Shown here piece after piece: positions 9,479-62,503 of a stretch of DNA of 64,000 bases (position 1 is the stretch's first letter; the number at the start of each line of letters is the position of its first letter). Where the stretch lies: assembly GCA_000004985.1 (NCBI GenBank), contig GG738883.1. The stretch is one strand, 5' to 3'. The notes under the pieces were generated by a model. That model ran no database searches and had not been told where the DNA came from. It saw only the letters and a list, made by a program, of their open reading frames with translations. The DNA comes from Naegleria gruberi (taxonomy: Eukaryota). A program made the position numbers and the translations under genes.

Positions 9479-10354
9479 TTATTCTCCAGTTTCAATCTTT
9501 CTCAAAACTTCGACCATTTCAGCAGCCAAAGATTTTGTGCAAGTGGCAAGACATCTGTGCTTTTGTAATAATACTTCTTCCTTGACATCCAAATCAATTG
9601 GATCACAAACTGTACCACCAGCTTCTTCGACAATAATTTTACCAGCAGCCATATCCCAGATTTGAATTCCATTTTCAAAGTAAGCATCAAGTGAACCATT
9701 TGCAACATAACACAAATTAATGACAGCACTTCCACTTCCTCTAATTCCATGACATCCTCTTCTCAAGAAGGCACCATATTTCTTTTCGACCATTCCTAAA
9801 ATTTCTTCAGTTCTTCCGTATGGGAAATTACTTGAGAGTAAAGATCCTTCAATTGATTCGCATTGTGAAATGACATTCTTTTCAAAAACTTGATTTGTGA
9901 ATGGAGTCTTTTGGAAAGATCCCTTTCCTTTAATTGCATAAAATGTTTCATTCATGATTGGATTGTGAACAACACCCATAACAACTTGTCCACAACAAGC
10001 TAATGCAATACTTGTACAAACTCCTGGATTACGATGGACAAAATTAGTAGTTCCATCAATAGGATCAATAATCCAACTATATCCATTCAATATAAGAGTT
10101 GTATCATGATTATTATATTCTTCACCAATAATTTGATGATCGGGATAATTTGTAAGTAAATGTTGAGACACAATCTCCTCAACACGTTTATCTGTCTGTG
10201 TGACCATATCAATTACAGTCGATTTGGTCAAGAAGGCTTTTTGCTGACTAGCAAAATGTTGTTTAATTTCAATAGCAGCCAATTCACAAGCCTTCAAAGC
10301 AACTTGCAAGGCTTGATCCAAATCAATAACTTTATATGTTCCTTCTGATGCCAT
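9479..10354 (-). CDS. IMPA: Inositol monophosphatase (IMPase family).
   Basis: WIIDPIDGTTNFVHR and IWDMAAG motifs; full-length 291-aa IMPase-like protein. Confidence 0.9.
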   Translation of the reverse strand: MASEGTYKVIDLDQALQVALKACELAAIEIKQHFASQQKAFLTKSTVIDMVTQTDKRVEEIVSQHLLTNYPDHQIIGEEYNNHDTTLILNGYSWIIDPIDGTTNFVHRNPGVCTSIALACCGQVVMGVVHNPIMNETFYAIKGKGSFQKTPFTNQVFEKNVISQCESIEGSLLSSNFPYGRTEEILGMVEKKYGAFLRRGCHGIRGSGSAVINLCYVANGSLDAYFENGIQIWDMAAGKIIVEEAGGTVCDPIDLDVKEEVLLQKHRCLATCTKSLAAEMVEVLRKIETGE

Positions 10355-10634: not shown

Positions 10635-13028
10635 TTATTGATCCAAAACTTGAATGAGGACAGAGTTTGGTTTTTTCACAATTTCACCAATTTTCCACAA
10701 ATTCAAATTCTTTTCCTTGAACGAATTGACCAGCTTTTCTTCCTCATCAGGAGAAATGGTAAACAGCAAGCCACCACTTGTTTGAGCATCTGCCAAAATT
10801 AATTGTTCTTCCTTTGATAGAGTTGAGGCGAATTCAACGAATTGTTGAACATTTTCCAAATTAGTTTTGGTTCCTCCAGGAATAACAATTCTCATTAAGG
10901 ATAGACAAGAAGAATCCAAAAGAGGAATTTGCTTTGCATTCAATTGAGCTACCAAATCCTTATTTTCCTCACAGATTTCTCTACTTCCTTTCATAATTTC
11001 CTTCAAATGTCCTAGTAATCCAAAACCTGTCACATCAGTGCAAGAAGAGACAGATTTCATTTCTCTCAACACATACGAAGTATCTCTATTCAAAGTCTTC
11101 ATAGAATTGATTGCAGATTGAGCTGTTTCAGATTCATATGGAACATTACCCAATTTCATTGCAGATGTAATGACACCTGTTCCAATTCTCTTGGTGAGGA
11201 ATAATAAATCTCCTTCTTCACATCCAACATTTCTGAAAATCTTGTCAGGATGAATAATGCCATTTACACTCATGCCGAATTTAGGTTCCTCATCATCGAT
11301 GGAATGACCACCAACAATGGCAACTCCAGCTTCATTGGCTTTATCGATGGAACCTCTCAAGATTTCTTGGAGAATTTCGATTGGGAGAGTTCTGGATGGG
11401 AAGGCAACAACACTGAGAGCTGTTTGTGGTTTACCACCCATTGCATAGACATCACTTAAGGCATTAGCACAAGCAATAGCTCCAAAATCGTAAGGGTTGT
11501 CCACAATTGGAGCGAAAAAGTCAATGGTGCTTACAATAGCAACGTGATCATTGATTTTGTAAACTGCTGCATCGTCACAGGTTGAATTTCCAACCAGAAC
11601 TGAATTATTTTCTGGTTGTTTTGGCAATTTCTGTAAAATACTGTCTAGTAATCGAGAATTAATCTTACATCCACATCCCAATCCAGAAGCTAATTGAGTC
11701 AACTTGACATTATCTGCATTAACGTTCAATGAAACTTTCTTTGAGAAACAAACTCCGCTTGAAGATATTGAACTAGAACAAGATGAAGCAACTCCTGTAG
11801 CTCCTCCACCACATGGACCACAGGATGATGAGCCACTTCCGCCTCCAGAAGTTGCCATTGATGGAGCAGCTCCTTTTGATTTTAGCCCAAAGTGAATCGA
11901 ACGGTTTCCAACGACATTAAAGTGATTTCCCAACCAAGTATCTGAAAGAACTGAGGCAGTATTTCCACAAACTAGAACTGGTTTGTGGGCTTCAAATTTG
12001 TGAGTACCATCCAATTGGTAACTTTGTGGATAGCCCTTAATACTTCCCTTATAATAAGCAACTTGTCCATAATCTTCACATAATGGTTCAAAATCGAATA
12101 ACTTGAATAATCTGTATGTGGAAGTGAATGACGAGAGCTCTGAAAATAAATCTTGCATATCCTCCTCACCTTTTGGTGGTACCATCGATATGGAAATCAT
12201 TGAGGAACGACTCAATTCTCTTGGATCTTCAAATCCAGACTTTTTCACAAATCTAATAAAGTCATTAATGTACATGGCATGTGAAAACAAATTGATGAGA
12301 CTCTTTTGTGAAGGCGCAATCAAGGATCTGTGGACAGAGTTTTGCAAGACGGAAATTTGCAAATTGTCCAATCTTCTATCGGTATAAATATCCTGATAGT
12401 AAAATTCACCTCCCTTTTTAAGTAATCCAAATGAAAGCTCAAACATTTTTCTCTTCTCTCTCAATTGGAATCCAGGGAAATTACCAATCATTACATCAAA
12501 GGATTCTTTCTTCTCCAATTCCACTTTCAGCTCATGCTGTTTTCCTAAATAAGTAAAGTCAATTGGACTAAATGACAAGTCCTTCAACAATTCATCCATT
12601 ACCTTAATCAACTCTTCCTCGCTCTCCAAACCTCCCATTCTATACAACTTTTCTCTATTTTCACTCAGTACCAACAATGAAACTCTTCCATTTCTTCCAA
12701 CCATTTTCGAAGCCACCAAAACATCTCTCATTGCACTTGATAATAACAACTCATCATCACCATTCGCACACAACACACCAACATTAAGGTGATGATGATT
12801 ATCGAGAGTGGATGATCCCAATCCCAGTGGAATATTCATTCCGATCATTCCCTGTGAAGAAAATGCTGAGGATTGATCTAAAAGTTTGCTGAGGAATTTT
12901 CTTAAAGTTTCCGAATGTAGGGTTGATGATGAGGCAATTTGGGAAAGTTGATTGAGTAGTTGGACATGATCTCTGTGATGAGAGTTACTGGAAATGAAAT
13001 TAAGATTTAAGAATTCTATCATTTTCAT
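10635..13028 (-). CDS. SPS: Selenophosphate synthetase (SelD/SPS, Cys-type) fused to an N-terminal arsenite/selenium-methyltransferase (AS3MT)-like domain.
   Basis: The C-terminal half has the SelD active-site signature LASGLGCGCKINSRLLDSIL (E. coli HGAGCGCKISPKVLETIL) and AIR-synthase-like blocks (AAVYKIND, FFAPIVDNPYDFGAIACANALSDVYAMGG). The N-terminal ~440 aa has AS3MT-like blocks (FDVMIGNFPGF...LLKKGGEFYYQDIYTDRRL; RLFKLFDFE; a Cys/Gly-rich SSSCGPCGGG segment). The expected GxGxG SAM loop appears degenerate (NVGVLCANGDDE). Confidence 0.85.
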   Translation of the reverse strand: MKMIEFLNLNFISSNSHHRDHVQLLNQLSQIASSSTLHSETLRKFLSKLLDQSSAFSSQGMIGMNIPLGLGSSTLDNHHHLNVGVLCANGDDELLLSSAMRDVLVASKMVGRNGRVSLLVLSENREKLYRMGGLESEEELIKVMDELLKDLSFSPIDFTYLGKQHELKVELEKKESFDVMIGNFPGFQLREKRKMFELSFGLLKKGGEFYYQDIYTDRRLDNLQISVLQNSVHRSLIAPSQKSLINLFSHAMYINDFIRFVKKSGFEDPRELSRSSMISISMVPPKGEEDMQDLFSELSSFTSTYRLFKLFDFEPLCEDYGQVAYYKGSIKGYPQSYQLDGTHKFEAHKPVLVCGNTASVLSDTWLGNHFNVVGNRSIHFGLKSKGAAPSMATSGGGSGSSSCGPCGGGATGVASSCSSSISSSGVCFSKKVSLNVNADNVKLTQLASGLGCGCKINSRLLDSILQKLPKQPENNSVLVGNSTCDDAAVYKINDHVAIVSTIDFFAPIVDNPYDFGAIACANALSDVYAMGGKPQTALSVVAFPSRTLPIEILQEILRGSIDKANEAGVAIVGGHSIDDEEPKFGMSVNGIIHPDKIFRNVGCEEGDLLFLTKRIGTGVITSAMKLGNVPYESETAQSAINSMKTLNRDTSYVLREMKSVSSCTDVTGFGLLGHLKEIMKGSREICEENKDLVAQLNAKQIPLLDSSCLSLMRIVIPGGTKTNLENVQQFVEFASTLSKEEQLILADAQTSGGLLFTISPDEEEKLVNSFKEKNLNLWKIGEIVKKPNSVLIQVLDQ

Positions 13029-13804: not shown

Positions 13805-14569
13805 ATGAAAATTGGTTCGGGTCGTTCTTGTAGAACTCCATCATCATCAGGTTCAATAGGATTTCATAGCAATTCATTGTATCGTAGAAATATTGGAAAG
13901 ATGAATTTGCTCATGTTTTTTGTTACACTGGTGATCAGTTTATCAATACTTCATACATCATCTTCAACATCGCCATCATTTGGAGTGATGGCCATTTATA
14001 CGGAAATATATGCTGGAAAATCTGTCTGCTTTGCCGAAGATATCACTCCTAATACACCAGTCATAGTAACATATACAGCACCAAGTACAGTTGTGTTATC
14101 TACCTTGACAATAAGAGATCCATTTGGAGGTGTAGTTTCGGAAGAGAAGAATTTCCCATCAAATGGACCTCACAAGGTTCAATTCAAAACACGTTTTGAT
14201 GTTTCTGGAATGTATGAAATTTGTATCATGCCAACACAATTTGCTTCGATTCACGTTTATGGAGAGCCAACCTATGCTGCTATTAATATTGAAGTGGATA
14301 GAGAACATACGACTATGGATCATCCGGAAAGCAAGGACAGAGTAGAGAAATTATCAAATTTATTAACATCAGTGCAAGGGAAAATTAACGAAATCAATGC
14401 TCACCAGAACTACTTGAAAGAAAGAGAGGCCCGATTTCGATTCACAACTGATAGTACTTATGAAAGATGTTTTTGGATGGGTGCTGGAAAGTTTGGATTG
14501 TTATTTGTTCTAGCTGCTTGGCAATTGTACAATCTTCGTTCCTTCTTCAAGAAGAGGAAATTAATTTAA
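13805..14569 (+). CDS. p24/emp24 (GOLD-domain) cargo receptor.
   Basis: Signal-peptide-like MNLLMFFVTLVISLSILHTSSS (alternative ATG at 13901), a GOLD-like beta region, a coiled segment, then a C-terminal TM plus short tail (FGLLFVLAAWQLYNLRSFFKKRKLI) typical of p24. Confidence 0.8.
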   Translation: MKIGSGRSCRTPSSSGSIGFHSNSLYRRNIGKMNLLMFFVTLVISLSILHTSSSTSPSFGVMAIYTEIYAGKSVCFAEDITPNTPVIVTYTAPSTVVLSTLTIRDPFGGVVSEEKNFPSNGPHKVQFKTRFDVSGMYEICIMPTQFASIHVYGEPTYAAINIEVDREHTTMDHPESKDRVEKLSNLLTSVQGKINEINAHQNYLKEREARFRFTTDSTYERCFWMGAGKFGLLFVLAAWQLYNLRSFFKKRKLI

Positions 14570-14835: not shown

Positions 14836-16446
14836 ATGAAACCACACCACCATCAAAAAAGAAATAACCAATCTTTAACTGCATCATCACCAATTCTATT
14901 CGGTAAAATTCCTCATGTAGTAGAATTGTCATCATCACAACAAACGAATTATCACAATAATGAAGAAGTGAAATCGTTAACTGTTTCGGAAGAACAATCT
15001 TGTGGAAACATGACAAGGAAGGAACATAAACCGAGGAAATCCAGAGATTTTGCAAATAGGAATGTGAAAAAGCATGCTGACTCTAAAAACAAACGAAAAT
15101 TGACCAATAATTTTGTGCATTTACCTTGTGAATTAGTATTGCATATTGTAGAATATTTGGAGTTTTCACAATTTATTCACATCTTTCTATTGTGTAAAAA
15201 TTTAACAAACAAATTGAATGAAAATTCCTCTCAATTCTACAAACTGCTATTGATTAGAATTATGAAAAGTGATATTTCCAGCTATAGGAGATATTTAGAG
15301 GAGAGAACCAAGTATAATTCCTGTCCATTCTCATTCGATATTAAGAGCACTTGCTTTAAGGCAAGAGGAATTGTACAGTGGAAAAGGTTGATTGAAAAGA
15401 GAGAGCACGAATTGGATAATCATTTGAATAAGAAACGAAAAGAACTCAAGGATTGGAAACAAGTTTATGACGGCTATTCGAGGAGAAGATCCATTGAGCA
15501 TGTCATGTTTAGAGTGAAAACTGTTTCGAAAGCTTGTTGGAAGAATGATAAGTCCTTGATTCTTGTTTTGAAAATGATAACTCAATTGAGGGAGAAATTG
15601 TTGAAATTGGACCCTGAATTGAGAAAGTACATTGTACAGAGAAATTATGGAAAGAGAATCAAAAGAGGACATACACTCTTCCATCAAATAGTTTATCTGA
15701 TTGGAAATTATTCAGAAATTCGATATGATTATGAATCTATTCAACCTTTCGTACCCCATCTCAAGTTTCTAATTGGATGTTGTGGAGAAGAAAATCCTCT
15801 CTTTACCAGAAATTCATACAATTACTCTGGAATGGATTATATTGTGAGAATTGGGAGTTATGCACTCATATCAGAGATGGTCTATTCGTACTCTCATCTA
15901 TTGAAAGGATCAGATTTATCAACATTTGAAAGGAAACCATTCTTGTTTTCCATGATTAAGAACAAGATTGCTAGCACAGTTATTAAGAATTGGATTCAAA
16001 AGTTTGAATTTCCAAAATCCTCTTTGACTATTCGAAATCATCTCAATATGAATATTCTTCACTATCTGATGCACTTTGTATTTAAATATGGTACCCAAGA
16101 CTTTTCACAATTCGTTTACCTTCTGAAAAGTGAATTATCTGAAGAGCAAGTACTAGCAATGCTAAAGGGAAAAGATGATTTAGACGAAACACCAATGTCT
16201 AAACTCCTTTCTATGTGTGAAAATAATCAAAGGAATTCCAGAGTAGGAATAATCAATTGGAAGAATCTTAAAAGACTGTATGGTCTGGTCAATATGATGG
16301 CTATTCGCTTGGGATATGATATGAGTAGTGAGGAATTGGATCGTTGGAATAATTTATTGAGAAATAATGATGAAATATTTGGAGATTCTTGTTCGAAATT
16401 TCATCTTTCTGAGGGAGTTATTGAAATGATGAGAAAAGGAATGTGA
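14836..16446 (+). CDS. F-box-like protein.
   Basis: LPCELVLHIVEYLEFSQFIHIFLLCKNL fits the F-box consensus (LP.E....I..YL........VCK.); the rest is unrecognised. Confidence 0.5.
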   Translation: MKPHHHQKRNNQSLTASSPILFGKIPHVVELSSSQQTNYHNNEEVKSLTVSEEQSCGNMTRKEHKPRKSRDFANRNVKKHADSKNKRKLTNNFVHLPCELVLHIVEYLEFSQFIHIFLLCKNLTNKLNENSSQFYKLLLIRIMKSDISSYRRYLEERTKYNSCPFSFDIKSTCFKARGIVQWKRLIEKREHELDNHLNKKRKELKDWKQVYDGYSRRRSIEHVMFRVKTVSKACWKNDKSLILVLKMITQLREKLLKLDPELRKYIVQRNYGKRIKRGHTLFHQIVYLIGNYSEIRYDYESIQPFVPHLKFLIGCCGEENPLFTRNSYNYSGMDYIVRIGSYALISEMVYSYSHLLKGSDLSTFERKPFLFSMIKNKIASTVIKNWIQKFEFPKSSLTIRNHLNMNILHYLMHFVFKYGTQDFSQFVYLLKSELSEEQVLAMLKGKDDLDETPMSKLLSMCENNQRNSRVGIINWKNLKRLYGLVNMMAIRLGYDMSSEELDRWNNLLRNNDEIFGDSCSKFHLSEGVIEMMRKGM

Positions 16447-23612: not shown

Positions 23613-23683
23613 TCGGGTGTGGTATAGTGGTAGCATTCCAGACTGTCACTCTGGCGACCCGGGTTCAATTCCAGGCACTCGAG
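23613..23683 (+). tRNA. tRNA-Asp (anticodon GTC), possibly degenerate or a pseudogene.
   Basis: Cloverleaf: acceptor TCGGGTG/CACTCGA, anticodon stem CCAGA/TCTGG with loop CTGTCAC, T-loop TTCAATT. The D-stem (A.C) and T-stem (G.A) each carry one mismatch relative to canonical tRNA-Asp. Confidence 0.55.
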
Positions 23684-62430: not shown

Positions 62431-62503
62431 TCCCCCTTAGCTCAGTCGGTAGAGCGTCAGACTGTTAATCTGCAGGTCGGTGGTTCGAGCCCACCAGGGG
62501 GAG
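62431..62503 (+). tRNA. tRNA-Asn (anticodon GTT).
   Basis: Acceptor TCCCCCT/AGGGGGA, D-arm GCTC-AGTCGGTA-GAGC, anticodon loop CTGTTAA, T-arm GGTGG-TTCGAGC-CCACC; 73 nt. Confidence 0.85.

What the first reader, a model, noticed from the sequence alone, without database searches (positions are those of the whole stretch)
10635..13028. Selenophosphate synthetase fused to an AS3MT-like, possibly catalytically dead, methyltransferase domain
One uninterrupted 797-codon ORF carries a Cys-type SelD active site (GLGCGCK) downstream of a ~440-aa region. That region has arsenite/selenium methyltransferase blocks (GNFPGF, LLKKGGEFYYQDIYTDRRL, a C-terminal Cys/Gly cluster). Its GxGxG SAM-binding loop appears replaced (VLCANGDDE). 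AS3MT-type enzymes also methylate selenium species, so a physical link to selenophosphate synthesis suggests selenium channelling or detoxification coupling. An SPS with an extra N-terminal methyltransferase-like domain has been reported for Naegleria. That supports the organism guess but leaves the function open.
Basis: partly seen in the sequence, partly recalled or inferred. Interest (0 to 1): 0.62.

Follow-up and report, generated by a model that had tools for sequence, protein, structure and literature searches.

The report
Naegleria SelD fused to dead ArsM
This is the already-published Naegleria gruberi selenophosphate synthetase gene that carries an extra arsenite-methyltransferase-like front half; here that front half is shown by sequence to have lost every residue needed to methylate anything, while one of its sub-domains stays well conserved.

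Summary
Window 10635-13028 (minus strand) is one 797-codon ORF. Residues 439-797 are an intact, bacterial-type, Cys-type SelD. Residues ~19-382 are collinear with eukaryotic ArsM/AS3MT. The window is Naegleria gruberi scaffold GG738883.1, and this exact fusion was published by da Silva et al. 2013 and re-analysed by Mariotti et al. 2015 and Chen et al. 2017. The finding is therefore a rediscovery.

What the tools add:
- The ArsM half is catalytically dead by sequence. All four catalytic cysteines are absent, the GxGxG motif is broken by a 13-residue insertion, and the motif-II Asp is Val.
- It keeps 70 of 124 family-conserved positions; the worst true ArsM keeps 110. SelD keeps 108 of 119.
- The decay is regional. 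The ArsM C-terminal sub-domain (251-382, with CEDYGQ and VCGN) is as conserved as in real ArsMs.
- No frameshift or intron explains the losses.
- No other ArsM-SelD fusion was found in 1.84 billion protein-cluster representatives or in metagenomes.
- The ORF extends 60 codons upstream of the annotated start.

The most likely role of the front half is non-catalytic: selenium binding or hand-over to SelD, or a scaffold. This is inferred, not shown.

The parts
10635..13028 (-). Complete 797-codon ORF plus stop codon: N. gruberi methyltransferase-like/selenophosphate synthetase fusion (MT-SPS, 'SPS2')
   Evidence: ORF list; identical to N. gruberi predicted protein P0001 from residue 61 to the end. 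Mariotti's SPS.2 at GG738883.1 74638-75717 (-) has the same sequence.
12849..13028 (-). Residues 1-60: N-terminal extension missing from the annotated 737-aa model. It is a remnant of the ArsM N-terminal segment that normally carries the Cys44 equivalent.
   Evidence: M1 is the first ATG after an in-frame TAA 8 codons upstream. P(60 open codons) = 0.011. tblastn HSPs of intact ArsMs start at window 12974-12926 and run through this segment in the same frame. Identity to ArsMs is only 10% and pLDDT is below 50 for most of it.
12279..12848 (-). Residues 61-250: degenerate SAM-binding (Rossmann) and As(III)-binding part of the ArsM-like domain
   Evidence: 28 of 64 family-conserved columns kept, against a minimum of 56 in true ArsMs. 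25-27% identity to ArsMs, against 59-71% among ArsMs. There is no cysteine between residues 88 and 316. The Pfam Methyltransf_31 match is sub-threshold and starts only at profile position 31.
12834..12845 (-). IGMN (62-65): remnant of the YGCG motif; the CmArsM Cys72 equivalent is Met64
   Evidence: MAFFT, 106 homologues; C is 100% conserved in that column. There is no Cys anywhere in residues 1-86.
12723..12788 (-). LNVG[VLCANGDDELLLS]SAMRD (81-102): broken motif I. The second and third Gly of GxGxG are replaced by Ser98 and Met100, and a 13-residue insertion splits the motif.
   Evidence: alignments. (model: strand 82-87, loop 88-92, helix 93-110).
12663..12677 (-). LLVLS (118-122): motif II / end of beta2. 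The invariant ribose-binding Asp (GxDMT) is Val120.
   Evidence: the D column is 100% conserved in 106 homologues, and Ng has V.
12468..12485 (-). GNFPGF (182-187): remnant of SNCVxNLSP; the As(III)-binding Cys174 equivalent is Phe184
   Evidence: The HMMER alignment to CmArsM 4fr0 places Cys174 opposite F184. MAFFT agrees.
12270..12293 (-). NLFSHAMY (246-253): remnant of GECxGGALY; the As(III)-binding Cys224 equivalent is Leu247
   Evidence: (HMMER against 4fr0).
11883..12278 (-). Residues 251-382: well-conserved ArsM C-terminal sub-domain, with CEDYGQ (Cys317, 12063-12080) and VCGN (Cys354, 11961-11972)
   Evidence: 38 of 45 conserved columns kept in residues 251-382; 40 of 49 in residues 251-440. 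50% identity to ArsMs against 59% among ArsMs. pLDDT 83-96.
11715..11882 (-). Residues 383-438: Gly/Ser/Cys-rich linker, predicted disordered, with CGPC (Cys403/406), Cys417 and Cys427. It is an expansion of the short '...xCC' tail of free-standing ArsMs.
   Evidence: alignment of tails and Cys positions; the model segment 402-440 has pLDDT below 50.
10638..11714 (-). Residues 439-797: intact Cys-type selenide, water dikinase (SelD/SPS) of bacterial type
   Evidence: TIGR00476 357.8 bits (cut-off 125) and NF002098 345.4 bits (cut-off 299); 3u0o E=6.8e-70 against human SPS1 E=3.3e-23; nearest relatives are bacterial SelD at 45-53% identity; 108 of 119 conserved columns kept.
11664..11684 (-). 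GLGCGCK (449-455): SelD N-terminal glycine-rich catalytic loop, with Cys452 at the Sec/Cys position and Lys455
   Evidence: aligned to E. coli gagcgck. G451, C452, C454 and K455 are all kept. [quoted passage not shown]

Best explanation
The ORF is the Naegleria gruberi MT-SPS gene.

Its C-terminal 359 residues are a fully intact, bacterial-type, Cys-type selenophosphate synthetase. This enzyme makes selenophosphate from selenide and ATP for selenocysteine synthesis.

Its N-terminal ~380 residues descend from a eukaryotic-type arsenite methyltransferase (ArsM/AS3MT) but are now a pseudo-enzyme. The SAM-binding glycine loop, the ribose-binding Asp and all four catalytic or As(III)-binding cysteines are gone, so the domain cannot carry out ArsM-type methyl transfer.

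Selection still preserves the ArsM C-terminal sub-domain, which has no Pfam model and, to my knowledge, no assigned function. That sub-domain keeps its Cys317/Cys354 pair. It is tethered by a flexible, four-cysteine Gly/Ser linker directly to SelD's catalytic Cys452/Lys455 loop.

Inferred step, not shown: this retained module and linker bind a reactive selenium species on thiols and sequester it or pass it to SelD. That would be analogous to the NifS-like and rhodanese modules fused at the same end of other SelDs. Alternatively the module acts as a structural scaffold.
For: Identity: 100% match to the N. gruberi protein. Same locus as the published SPS.2. The fusion is published.

SelD intact: (108 of 119 conserved columns; true SelDs range from 104, median 116). 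Mariotti Suppl. S2 relays that the fused protein, or the SPS domain alone, complements E. coli selD.

ArsM ancestry: 5evj E=1.2e-41. The top 13 Foldseek PDB hits are all ArsM/AS3MT, TM about 0.7.

Dead catalytic half:
- 70 of 124 conserved columns kept, against a minimum of 110 and median of 121 in 106 ArsMs.
- No Cys in residues 1-86 or 88-316, so the four catalytic Cys are absent whatever the alignment.
- Cys174 aligns to F184 and Cys224 to L247 in the HMMER alignment to CmArsM.
- Motifs I and II are lost.
- Curated HMMs fail: NF008823 11.1 bits against 263; Methyltransf_31 21.8 bits against 27, aligned only from profile position 31.
- The precomputed Pfam list for this protein has no methyltransferase family, unlike nearly all of the listed homologues.

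Not an artefact: intact ArsMs give one HSP in one frame across 12974-11850, and nothing in other frames.

Regional constraint: residues 1-250 keep 30 of 75 conserved columns and residues 251-440 keep 40 of 49 (Fisher p=6e-6). The identity ratio to the ArsM-versus-ArsM background is 0.22, 0.36 and 0.46 in the front parts against 0.86 in the C-sub-domain.

Selenium-handling context: the other SelD fusion partners found here are NifS-like, rhodanese, homocysteine S-methyltransferase and FeThRed_B. Per Mariotti S2, the N-domain gave partial resistance to selenium toxicity.
Against: No experiment here addresses SAM binding or selenium binding.

The selenium-relay role is inference from architecture and analogy.

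SelD alone complements E. coli selD, so the N-domain is not needed for catalysis.

No orthologue exists to measure selection, so dN/dS is impossible. The open frame of the front half could be kept open merely because SelD is translated through it.

Glu123, three residues after the lost motif-II Asp, could conceivably substitute, and unusual SAM-binding modes exist.

The AlphaFold model is guided by an alignment of true ArsMs, so the retained fold is partly imposed.

The solved CrArsM chain 5evj has Ala at both positions equivalent to Cys317 and Cys354, so that pair is not universal.
Confidence: 0.8

Rival explanations
1. The N-terminal domain is a functionless evolutionary relic. A once-active ArsM was fused to SelD, is now decaying, and stays open only because SelD is translated through it.
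For: Catalytic residues are lost. The fusion is seen in no other organism. The SPS domain alone complements E. coli selD. Residues 1-60 are at near-random identity to ArsMs (10%).
Against: Neutral decay should be uniform, but residues 251-382 keep 38 of 45 conserved columns and 86% of the normal ArsM-to-ArsM identity, while the front keeps 22-46% (Fisher p=6e-6 for 1-250 against 251-440). The N-domain is reported to confer partial selenium resistance (second-hand). About a dozen other ArsM-like proteins that lost the As-binding cysteines also keep this C-domain and, with one exception, its Cys pair.
Confidence: 0.17
2. The N-domain is still an active SAM-dependent methyltransferase, for example methylating selenide, selenite or arsenite for detoxification, using a non-canonical cofactor and substrate site.
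For: The Rossmann-like core is still predicted to fold, with pLDDT 71-94 for most of residues 100-250. GGEFY and DRR motifs are kept. A selenium-tolerance phenotype is reported. Chen et al. 2017 treat it as an arsM that gives methylation capacity.
Against: All three Gly-loop features are disrupted, the motif-II Asp is Val, and all four cysteines required for As(III) methylation are absent. The domain fails the inclusion rule stated by Chen et al. themselves: a SAM-binding domain plus at least 3 of 4 Cys. Even intact human AS3MT did not methylate Se or Te in vitro.
Confidence: 0.05
3. The fusion or the apparent motif loss is an artefact: two genes joined by a sequencing or assembly error, a frameshift, or an unrecognised intron.
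For: Only one genome carries it. The public gene model differs at the 5' end, starting at Met61.
Against: One continuous frame without a stop. Intact ArsM proteins align as a single HSP in frame -3, with no alternative-frame hits. SelD follows in the same frame after a linker derived from the ArsM tail. An independent gene model (P0001) spans both halves. Mariotti S2 relays genetic experiments with the fused protein. The 13-residue insertion (39 nt) is, from general knowledge, too short for a spliceosomal intron, and removing it would not restore GxGxG.
Confidence: 0.02

Closest known systems
Naegleria gruberi SelD/SPS2 with N-terminal methyltransferase-like domain (da Silva et al. 2013, Mol Biochem Parasitol 188:87; Mariotti et al. 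2015, PMC4561486, Suppl. [quoted passage not shown]
   Same: It is the same gene. The sequence is identical to the N. gruberi predicted protein from Met61 onward. It is the same locus as SPS.2 on GG738883.1.
   Different: The ORF in the window runs 60 codons further upstream than the 737-aa public model, and that extension is collinear with the ArsM N-terminus. The papers I could read describe the N-domain only as 'methyltransferase' or 'putative arsM'. None of them notes that the catalytic residues are lost. da Silva 2013 itself could not be read.
ArsM / AS3MT arsenite S-adenosylmethionine methyltransferases (CrArsM 5evj, CmArsM 4fr0, human AS3MT 8xt7)
   Same: Homologous over ~360 residues and same three-part fold. 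The C-terminal sub-domain is conserved at the normal family level.
   Different: The domain lacks Cys44, Cys72, Cys174 and Cys224 (CmArsM numbering), the GxGxG loop and the motif-II Asp. It falls far below the curated family thresholds. It is fused to SelD.
Bacterial SelD (E. coli SelD 3u0o; TIGR00476)
   Same: Full-length match. The catalytic Cys/Lys loop and conserved Asp residues are present, and the score is far above the equivalog cut-off.
   Different: It is encoded in a eukaryotic nuclear genome and carries a ~440-residue N-terminal extension. It is closer to bacterial SelD than to human SPS1 (E=6.8e-70 against 3.3e-23).
Other N-terminal SelD fusions: NifS-SPS, NADH-dehydrogenase-like-SPS (Zhang 2008 and Mariotti 2015), and the rhodanese-SelD and homocysteine-S-methyltransferase-SelD fusions seen here
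   Same: An extra module sits on the N-terminal side of a Cys-type SelD. The partners seen here belong to families that handle sulfur or selenium.
   Different: Those partners score as members of their families. Here the partner has lost its catalytic residues, and the architecture was found in a single species.

Membership tests
SelD / selenophosphate synthetase (selenide, water dikinase; TIGR00476, PurM/AIRS superfamily) | Full-length match to the curated equivalog model above its cut-off | tested here: met
   TIGR00476 357.8 bits against 125; NF002098 345.4 bits against 299.
SelD / selenophosphate synthetase (selenide, water dikinase; TIGR00476, PurM/AIRS superfamily) | N-terminal glycine-rich loop with catalytic Cys (or Sec) and Lys (E. 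coli Cys17/Lys20) | tested here: met
   GLGCGCK, with Cys452 and Lys455, aligned to E. coli gagcgck.
SelD / selenophosphate synthetase (selenide, water dikinase; TIGR00476, PurM/AIRS superfamily) | AIRS N- and C-domains with the family's conserved residues | tested here: met
   PF00586 at residues 485-592 and PF02769 at 604-791. 108 of 119 conserved columns kept, within the range of 83 true SelDs (104-119).
SelD / selenophosphate synthetase (selenide, water dikinase; TIGR00476, PurM/AIRS superfamily) | ATP-dependent selenophosphate synthesis | not testable with these tools
   Literature only: complementation of E. coli selD by the fused protein or by its SPS domain, as relayed in Mariotti Suppl. 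S2.
ArsM / AS3MT arsenite methyltransferase | Homology and three-domain fold | tested here: met
   5evj E=1.2e-41 over residues 101-411. Foldseek top 13 hits are all ArsM/AS3MT. tblastn is collinear from residue ~19 to ~393.
ArsM / AS3MT arsenite methyltransferase | Four conserved cysteines (CmArsM Cys44, 72, 174, 224). All four are needed for As(III) methylation. Chen et al. require at least 3 of the 4. | tested here: not met
   T36, M64, F184 and L247 at those columns. There is no Cys in residues 1-86 or 88-316.
ArsM / AS3MT arsenite methyltransferase | Class-I SAM-binding motifs: GxGxG loop (motif I) and acidic residue at the end of beta2 (motif II) | tested here: not met
   LNVG + 13-residue insertion + SAMRD; Gly replaced by S98 and M100; Asp replaced by V120.
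ArsM / AS3MT arsenite methyltransferase | Score above curated family thresholds | tested here: not met
   NF008823 11.1 bits against 263; NF041537 17 bits against 510; Pfam Methyltransf_31 21.8 bits against 27.
ArsM / AS3MT arsenite methyltransferase | SAM binding and methyl transfer to As(III) | not testable with these tools
   Needs purified protein.
Eukaryotic selenocysteine machinery context | tRNA-Sec, SECIS elements, PSTK/SepSecS/EFSec in the genome | tested here: inconclusive
   None in this 64-kb window; only tRNA-Asp and tRNA-Asn were found. The rest of the genome is not available here. The literature reports the machinery and selenoproteins in N. gruberi.

The most novel reading that the evidence does not exclude
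The ArsM C-terminal sub-domain (CExYGQ ... VCGN, with its Cys pair) is an autonomous thiol-based metalloid- or chalcogen-binding module. It has no Pfam model and, as far as I know, no assigned function. On this reading its job does not depend on methyl transfer. In Naegleria it has been co-opted, together with a Cys-rich swinging linker, to capture reactive selenium and feed or buffer SelD. The same module is retained in about a dozen other ArsM-like lineages that lost the As-binding cysteines, for example a Chlamydomonas leiostraca transcript.
Probability: 0.2. Interest if true: 0.55.

Novelty: already known. Interest (0 to 1): 0.3.

Why it matters
The fusion itself is old news. The useful correction is that the 'arsM' of N. 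gruberi should not be counted as an arsenic- or selenium-methylating enzyme. It was counted that way in an arsM horizontal-transfer study, which argues that the gene let Naegleria adapt to arsenic.

The gene is also a clean natural example of a half-dead enzyme whose surviving sub-domain has no assigned function. That makes the role of the ArsM C-terminal domain, and the way selenium is delivered to SelD in a protist, directly testable with a few point mutants.

Tried and rejected
1. A combined alignment (A1) for a full-length AlphaFold run. MAFFT stacked the ArsM rows onto the SelD half. I discarded it, modelled only the N-domain (A2), and obtained no inter-domain geometry.
2. da Silva 2013 is not in the held library. 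Its results are cited only through Mariotti Suppl. S2.
3. Chen 2017's supplement has no Naegleria accession. I could not tell whether their 'N. gruberi ArsM' is this protein or an unseen intact paralogue. No second ArsM lies in the window, and no other Naegleria-named hit appeared.
4. Search for orthologues or other ArsM-SelD fusions.
5. Frameshift or intron explanation for the lost motifs: rejected.
6. The idea that the Naegleria N-half belongs to a coherent family of cysteine-less ArsM paralogues: rejected. It is at most 30% identical to any of them in residues 61-250. The closest by C-domain (P0132) is a free-standing gene on a 49% GC contig with no SelD downstream.
7. Model coordinates are not exposed, so the Cys317-Cys354 distance could not be measured.
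8. tRNA-Sec and SECIS in the window: none.
Full report
**1. Observation**

Window 10635-13028 holds a single 797-codon ORF on the minus strand.
- An in-frame TAA lies 8 codons upstream of the first ATG.
- With this base composition, 440 stop-free codons have P about 6e-15, and 60 codons have P about 0.011.

**2. Identity of the locus**

- The protein is 100% identical, from residue 61 to the end, to a 737-aa 'predicted protein [Naegleria gruberi]' on a 371,401-bp contig.
- Mariotti et al. 2015 list 'SPS.2.cysteine.Naegleria_gruberi' at GG738883.1, strand -, 74638-75717. Its sequence begins ADNVKLTQLASGLGCGCKIN..., which is our residues 437 onward.
- The offset of 64000 suggests the window is GG738883.1:64001-128000. 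This is an inference.
- The 31-37% G+C of the window fits Naegleria.

**3. What is already published**

- Mariotti Suppl. [quoted passage not shown]
- It reports that the N-terminus resembles arsenite methyltransferase, UbiE/COQ5 and type-11 methyltransferases. It also reports that the C-terminus is a complete SPS with Cys at the Sec position.
- Citing da Silva et al. 2013, it says the fused protein, or the SPS domain alone, complements E. coli selD. It also says the N-domain gave partial resistance to selenium toxicity.
- N. gruberi has a second SPS, fused to NifS, on another scaffold.
- Chen et al. [quoted passage not shown] They attribute the arsM to transfer from a green alga.
- I could not read da Silva 2013 itself. 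From memory, not verified here, its abstract gives a gene length of 2214 bp. That equals the 737-codon model plus its stop codon.

**4. The SelD half (residues 439-797)**

- Pfam finds AIRS at 485-592 and AIRS_C at 604-791.
- TIGR00476 scores 357.8 bits against a cut-off of 125, and NF002098 scores 345.4 against 299.
- E. coli SelD 3u0o gives E=6.8e-70, against 3.3e-23 for human SPS1.
- The nearest database relatives are bacterial SelDs at 45-53% identity.
- Of 119 columns that are at least 85% conserved in 83 SelDs, this protein keeps 108. True SelDs range from 104, with a median of 116. Most of the 11 changes are conservative.
- The catalytic loop is GLGCGCK, with Cys452 and Lys455.
- Conclusion: a functional, bacterial-type, Cys-type SelD.

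**5. The N-terminal half is ArsM-derived**

- Chlamydomonas ArsM 5evj matches at E=1.2e-41 over residues 101-411. CmArsM matches at E=6e-18 and human AS3MT at E=6e-8.
- An AlphaFold model built on 105 homologues has mean pLDDT 73 and pTM 0.74. Its 13 best PDB matches are all ArsM/AS3MT, with TM about 0.7 on the target length. Generic methyltransferases follow some 13 orders of magnitude behind.
- The closest sequences are eukaryotic ArsMs, including Plasmodiophora, the heterolobosean Acrasis kona, chytrids and green algae.

**6. The catalytic part is dead**

I aligned the domain with 106 full-length ArsM homologues and took the 124 columns that are at least 85% conserved.
- The Naegleria domain keeps 70 of them. 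The worst homologue keeps 110 and the median is 121.

Specific losses:

| ArsM feature (CmArsM numbering) | Family consensus | Naegleria |
|---|---|---|
| Cys44 | AC | Thr36 |
| Cys72 | YGCG | IGMN (Met64) |
| Motif I | LDLG-SGSGRD | LNVG [VLCANGDDELLLS] SAMRD (Gly to Ser98 and Met100) |
| Motif II | GxDMT | LLVLS (Asp to Val120) |
| IE | IE | QH (164-165) |
| Cys174 | SNCVxNLSP | GNFPGFQLR (Phe184) |
| Cys224 | GEC | NL (Leu247) |

- The last two rows are also given by HMMER's own alignment to CmArsM 4fr0.
- Independently of any alignment, the N-domain has cysteines only at 87, 317, 354, 403, 406, 417 and 427. None can correspond to the four catalytic cysteines.
- All four are required for As(III) methylation (PMC6138428).
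- Chen et al. required a SAM-binding domain and at least 3 of the 4 cysteines to call a protein ArsM. This domain fails both conditions.
- Curated models agree. NF008823 scores 11.1 bits against 263. Pfam Methyltransf_31 scores 21.8 against 27 and aligns only from profile position 31, which skips motif I.

**7. The losses are not an artefact**

- Nine intact ArsM proteins each align to the DNA as an HSP in frame -3, together spanning 12974-11850. That corresponds to Ng residues ~19-393.
- No hit appears in any other frame at the locus.
- The only protein giving two HSPs is the Plasmodiophora one, which is itself partly duplicated.
- These HSPs also run through the 60 codons upstream of the annotated Met61. 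The degenerate YGCG remnant sits at residues 62-65, the same distance from Met1 as in the family consensus.
- Met1 is therefore the probable ancestral start, and the public model is probably 60 codons short. This is inferred, not shown.

**8. The decay is regional**

Conserved columns kept: 30 of 75 in residues 1-250 against 40 of 49 in residues 251-440 (Fisher p=6e-6).

| Residues | Ng vs ArsMs | ArsM vs ArsM | Ratio |
|---|---|---|---|
| 1-60 | 10% | 43% | 0.22 |
| 61-100 | 25% | 71% | 0.36 |
| 101-250 | 27% | 59% | 0.46 |
| 251-382 | 50% | 59% | 0.86 |

- The C-terminal sub-domain is thus as conserved as in a working ArsM. This includes CEDYGQ with Cys317, VCGN with Cys354, and the HxG motif. 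It is modelled at pLDDT 83-96.
- Free-standing homologues end shortly afterwards in '...xCC'. Here that tail is expanded to a ~56-residue Gly/Ser/Cys linker (CGPC, Cys417, Cys427). Its segment 402-440 is predicted disordered, and it runs straight into SelD's catalytic loop.

**9. Distribution**

- A filter-only HMMER search of 1.84 billion cluster representatives found only the N. gruberi protein itself as a close relative. The next hit is at E=1e-41.
- No hit's best stretch starts before query residue 81.
- None of the long hits has a SelD half.
- All 23 metagenomic relatives match the SelD half only. Nothing ArsM-like lies upstream of them.
- Within these collections the architecture is unique to N. 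gruberi, as Mariotti noted in 2015.

**10. Context for function**

- Other SelD fusion partners seen here are NifS-like, rhodanese, homocysteine S-methyltransferase (all N-terminal) and FeThRed_B (C-terminal). These families deal with sulfur or selenium.
- Among the nearest relatives of the N-domain, about a dozen cluster representatives also lack the As-binding cysteines. They keep the C-domain and, with one exception (P0162, which has Ser at the Cys317 position), its Cys pair.
- One of them clusters with a Chlamydomonas leiostraca transcript.
- Another, P0132, is a free-standing gene on a 49% GC contig with no SelD downstream.
- In the catalytic half these proteins are no closer to Naegleria than 30%. 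The Naegleria decay therefore looks independent.

**11. Mechanism**

Shown by sequence:
- an intact SelD;
- an ArsM-derived domain that lacks the residues for SAM binding and As(III) coordination;
- selective conservation of the C-sub-domain.

Inferred:
- the front half no longer methylates anything;
- its retained sub-domain and Cys-rich linker bind or buffer reactive selenium and may pass it to Cys452, or else serve as a scaffold.

The reported selenium-tolerance effect of the N-domain fits binding as well as it fits methylation.

**12. Verdict**

The gene itself is already known. The pseudo-enzyme status of the ArsM half, the regional pattern of decay and the probable 60-codon N-terminal extension are incremental additions. 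I did not find them in the papers I could read.

Noticed in passing
window 12849-13028 (-): The public gene model (737 aa, P0001) starts at Met61. The ORF continues 60 codons upstream to an ATG that is preceded by an in-frame TAA 8 codons earlier. That stretch is collinear with the ArsM N-terminus.
   Followed up: yes
proteins P0132, P0162, P0233, P0237, P0262; and P0169, P0204, P0205, P0223, P0229: About a dozen ArsM-like cluster representatives lack the As(III)-binding cysteines but keep the C-domain motifs CExYGQ and VCGN. One subgroup keeps GxGxG and is 35-44% alike, so it looks like a coherent paralogue family. P0205's cluster has 24 members on contigs up to 337 kb. P0233 clusters with a Chlamydomonas leiostraca transcript.
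   Followed up: partly
proteins P0002-P0006 and several hits: Other SelD fusions exist in public data: NifS-SelD, rhodanese-SelD (P0005), homocysteine S-methyltransferase (PF02574)-SelD (P0006, on a 74.5-kb JGI contig), and SelD with a C-terminal FeThRed_B domain (P0003, P0004). The last three types are not mentioned in the SPS-fusion survey I read.
   Followed up: partly
PDB chain 5evj_A as aligned: The solved Chlamydomonas ArsM chain has Ala at both positions (LAEDYGQ, VAGN) where 99-100% of 106 homologues have Cys (Cys317 and Cys354 here). I do not know whether this is engineered or natural.
   Followed up: no
PMC5552862: Chen et al. 2017 say all retained ArsMs have SAM motifs and at least 3 of 4 cysteines, yet they discuss the N. 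gruberi arsM-SelD fusion as an arsM that confers arsenic adaptation. The fusion's ArsM half has none of the four cysteines. Either they used another paralogue or the sequence slipped through their filter.
   Followed up: partly
protein P0010 (Plasmodiophora brassicae, 587 aa): This protein gives two overlapping tblastn HSPs (residues 76-296 and 242-579) on the same Naegleria region. It is therefore a partial tandem duplication of ArsM, which explains its outlying bit score.
   Followed up: partly
proteins P0007 and P0009; P0133, P0137 and P0163: ArsM domains are fused to a radical-SAM domain (PF04055) in P0007 and P0009, and to an N-terminal BED zinc finger in 790-970-aa proteins (P0133, P0137, P0163).
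   Followed up: no
window 9479-10354 (-), 13805-14569 (+), 14836-16446 (+): Neighbouring ORFs are an inositol monophosphatase family protein, a p24/GOLD cargo receptor, and a 536-aa ORF with no Pfam match. None has an obvious link to selenium metabolism.
   Followed up: yes
window 23613-23683 (+) and 62431-62503 (+): tRNA-Asp(GTC) and tRNA-Asn(GTT) are the only RNA genes found. There is no tRNA-Sec and no Rfam SECIS match in the window.
   Followed up: yes
window 11715-11882 (-): The inter-domain linker contains CGPC, the same four residues I recall as the thioredoxin active-site motif. Here it lies in a low-complexity segment whose residues 402-440 are predicted disordered, not in a thioredoxin fold.
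   Followed up: no
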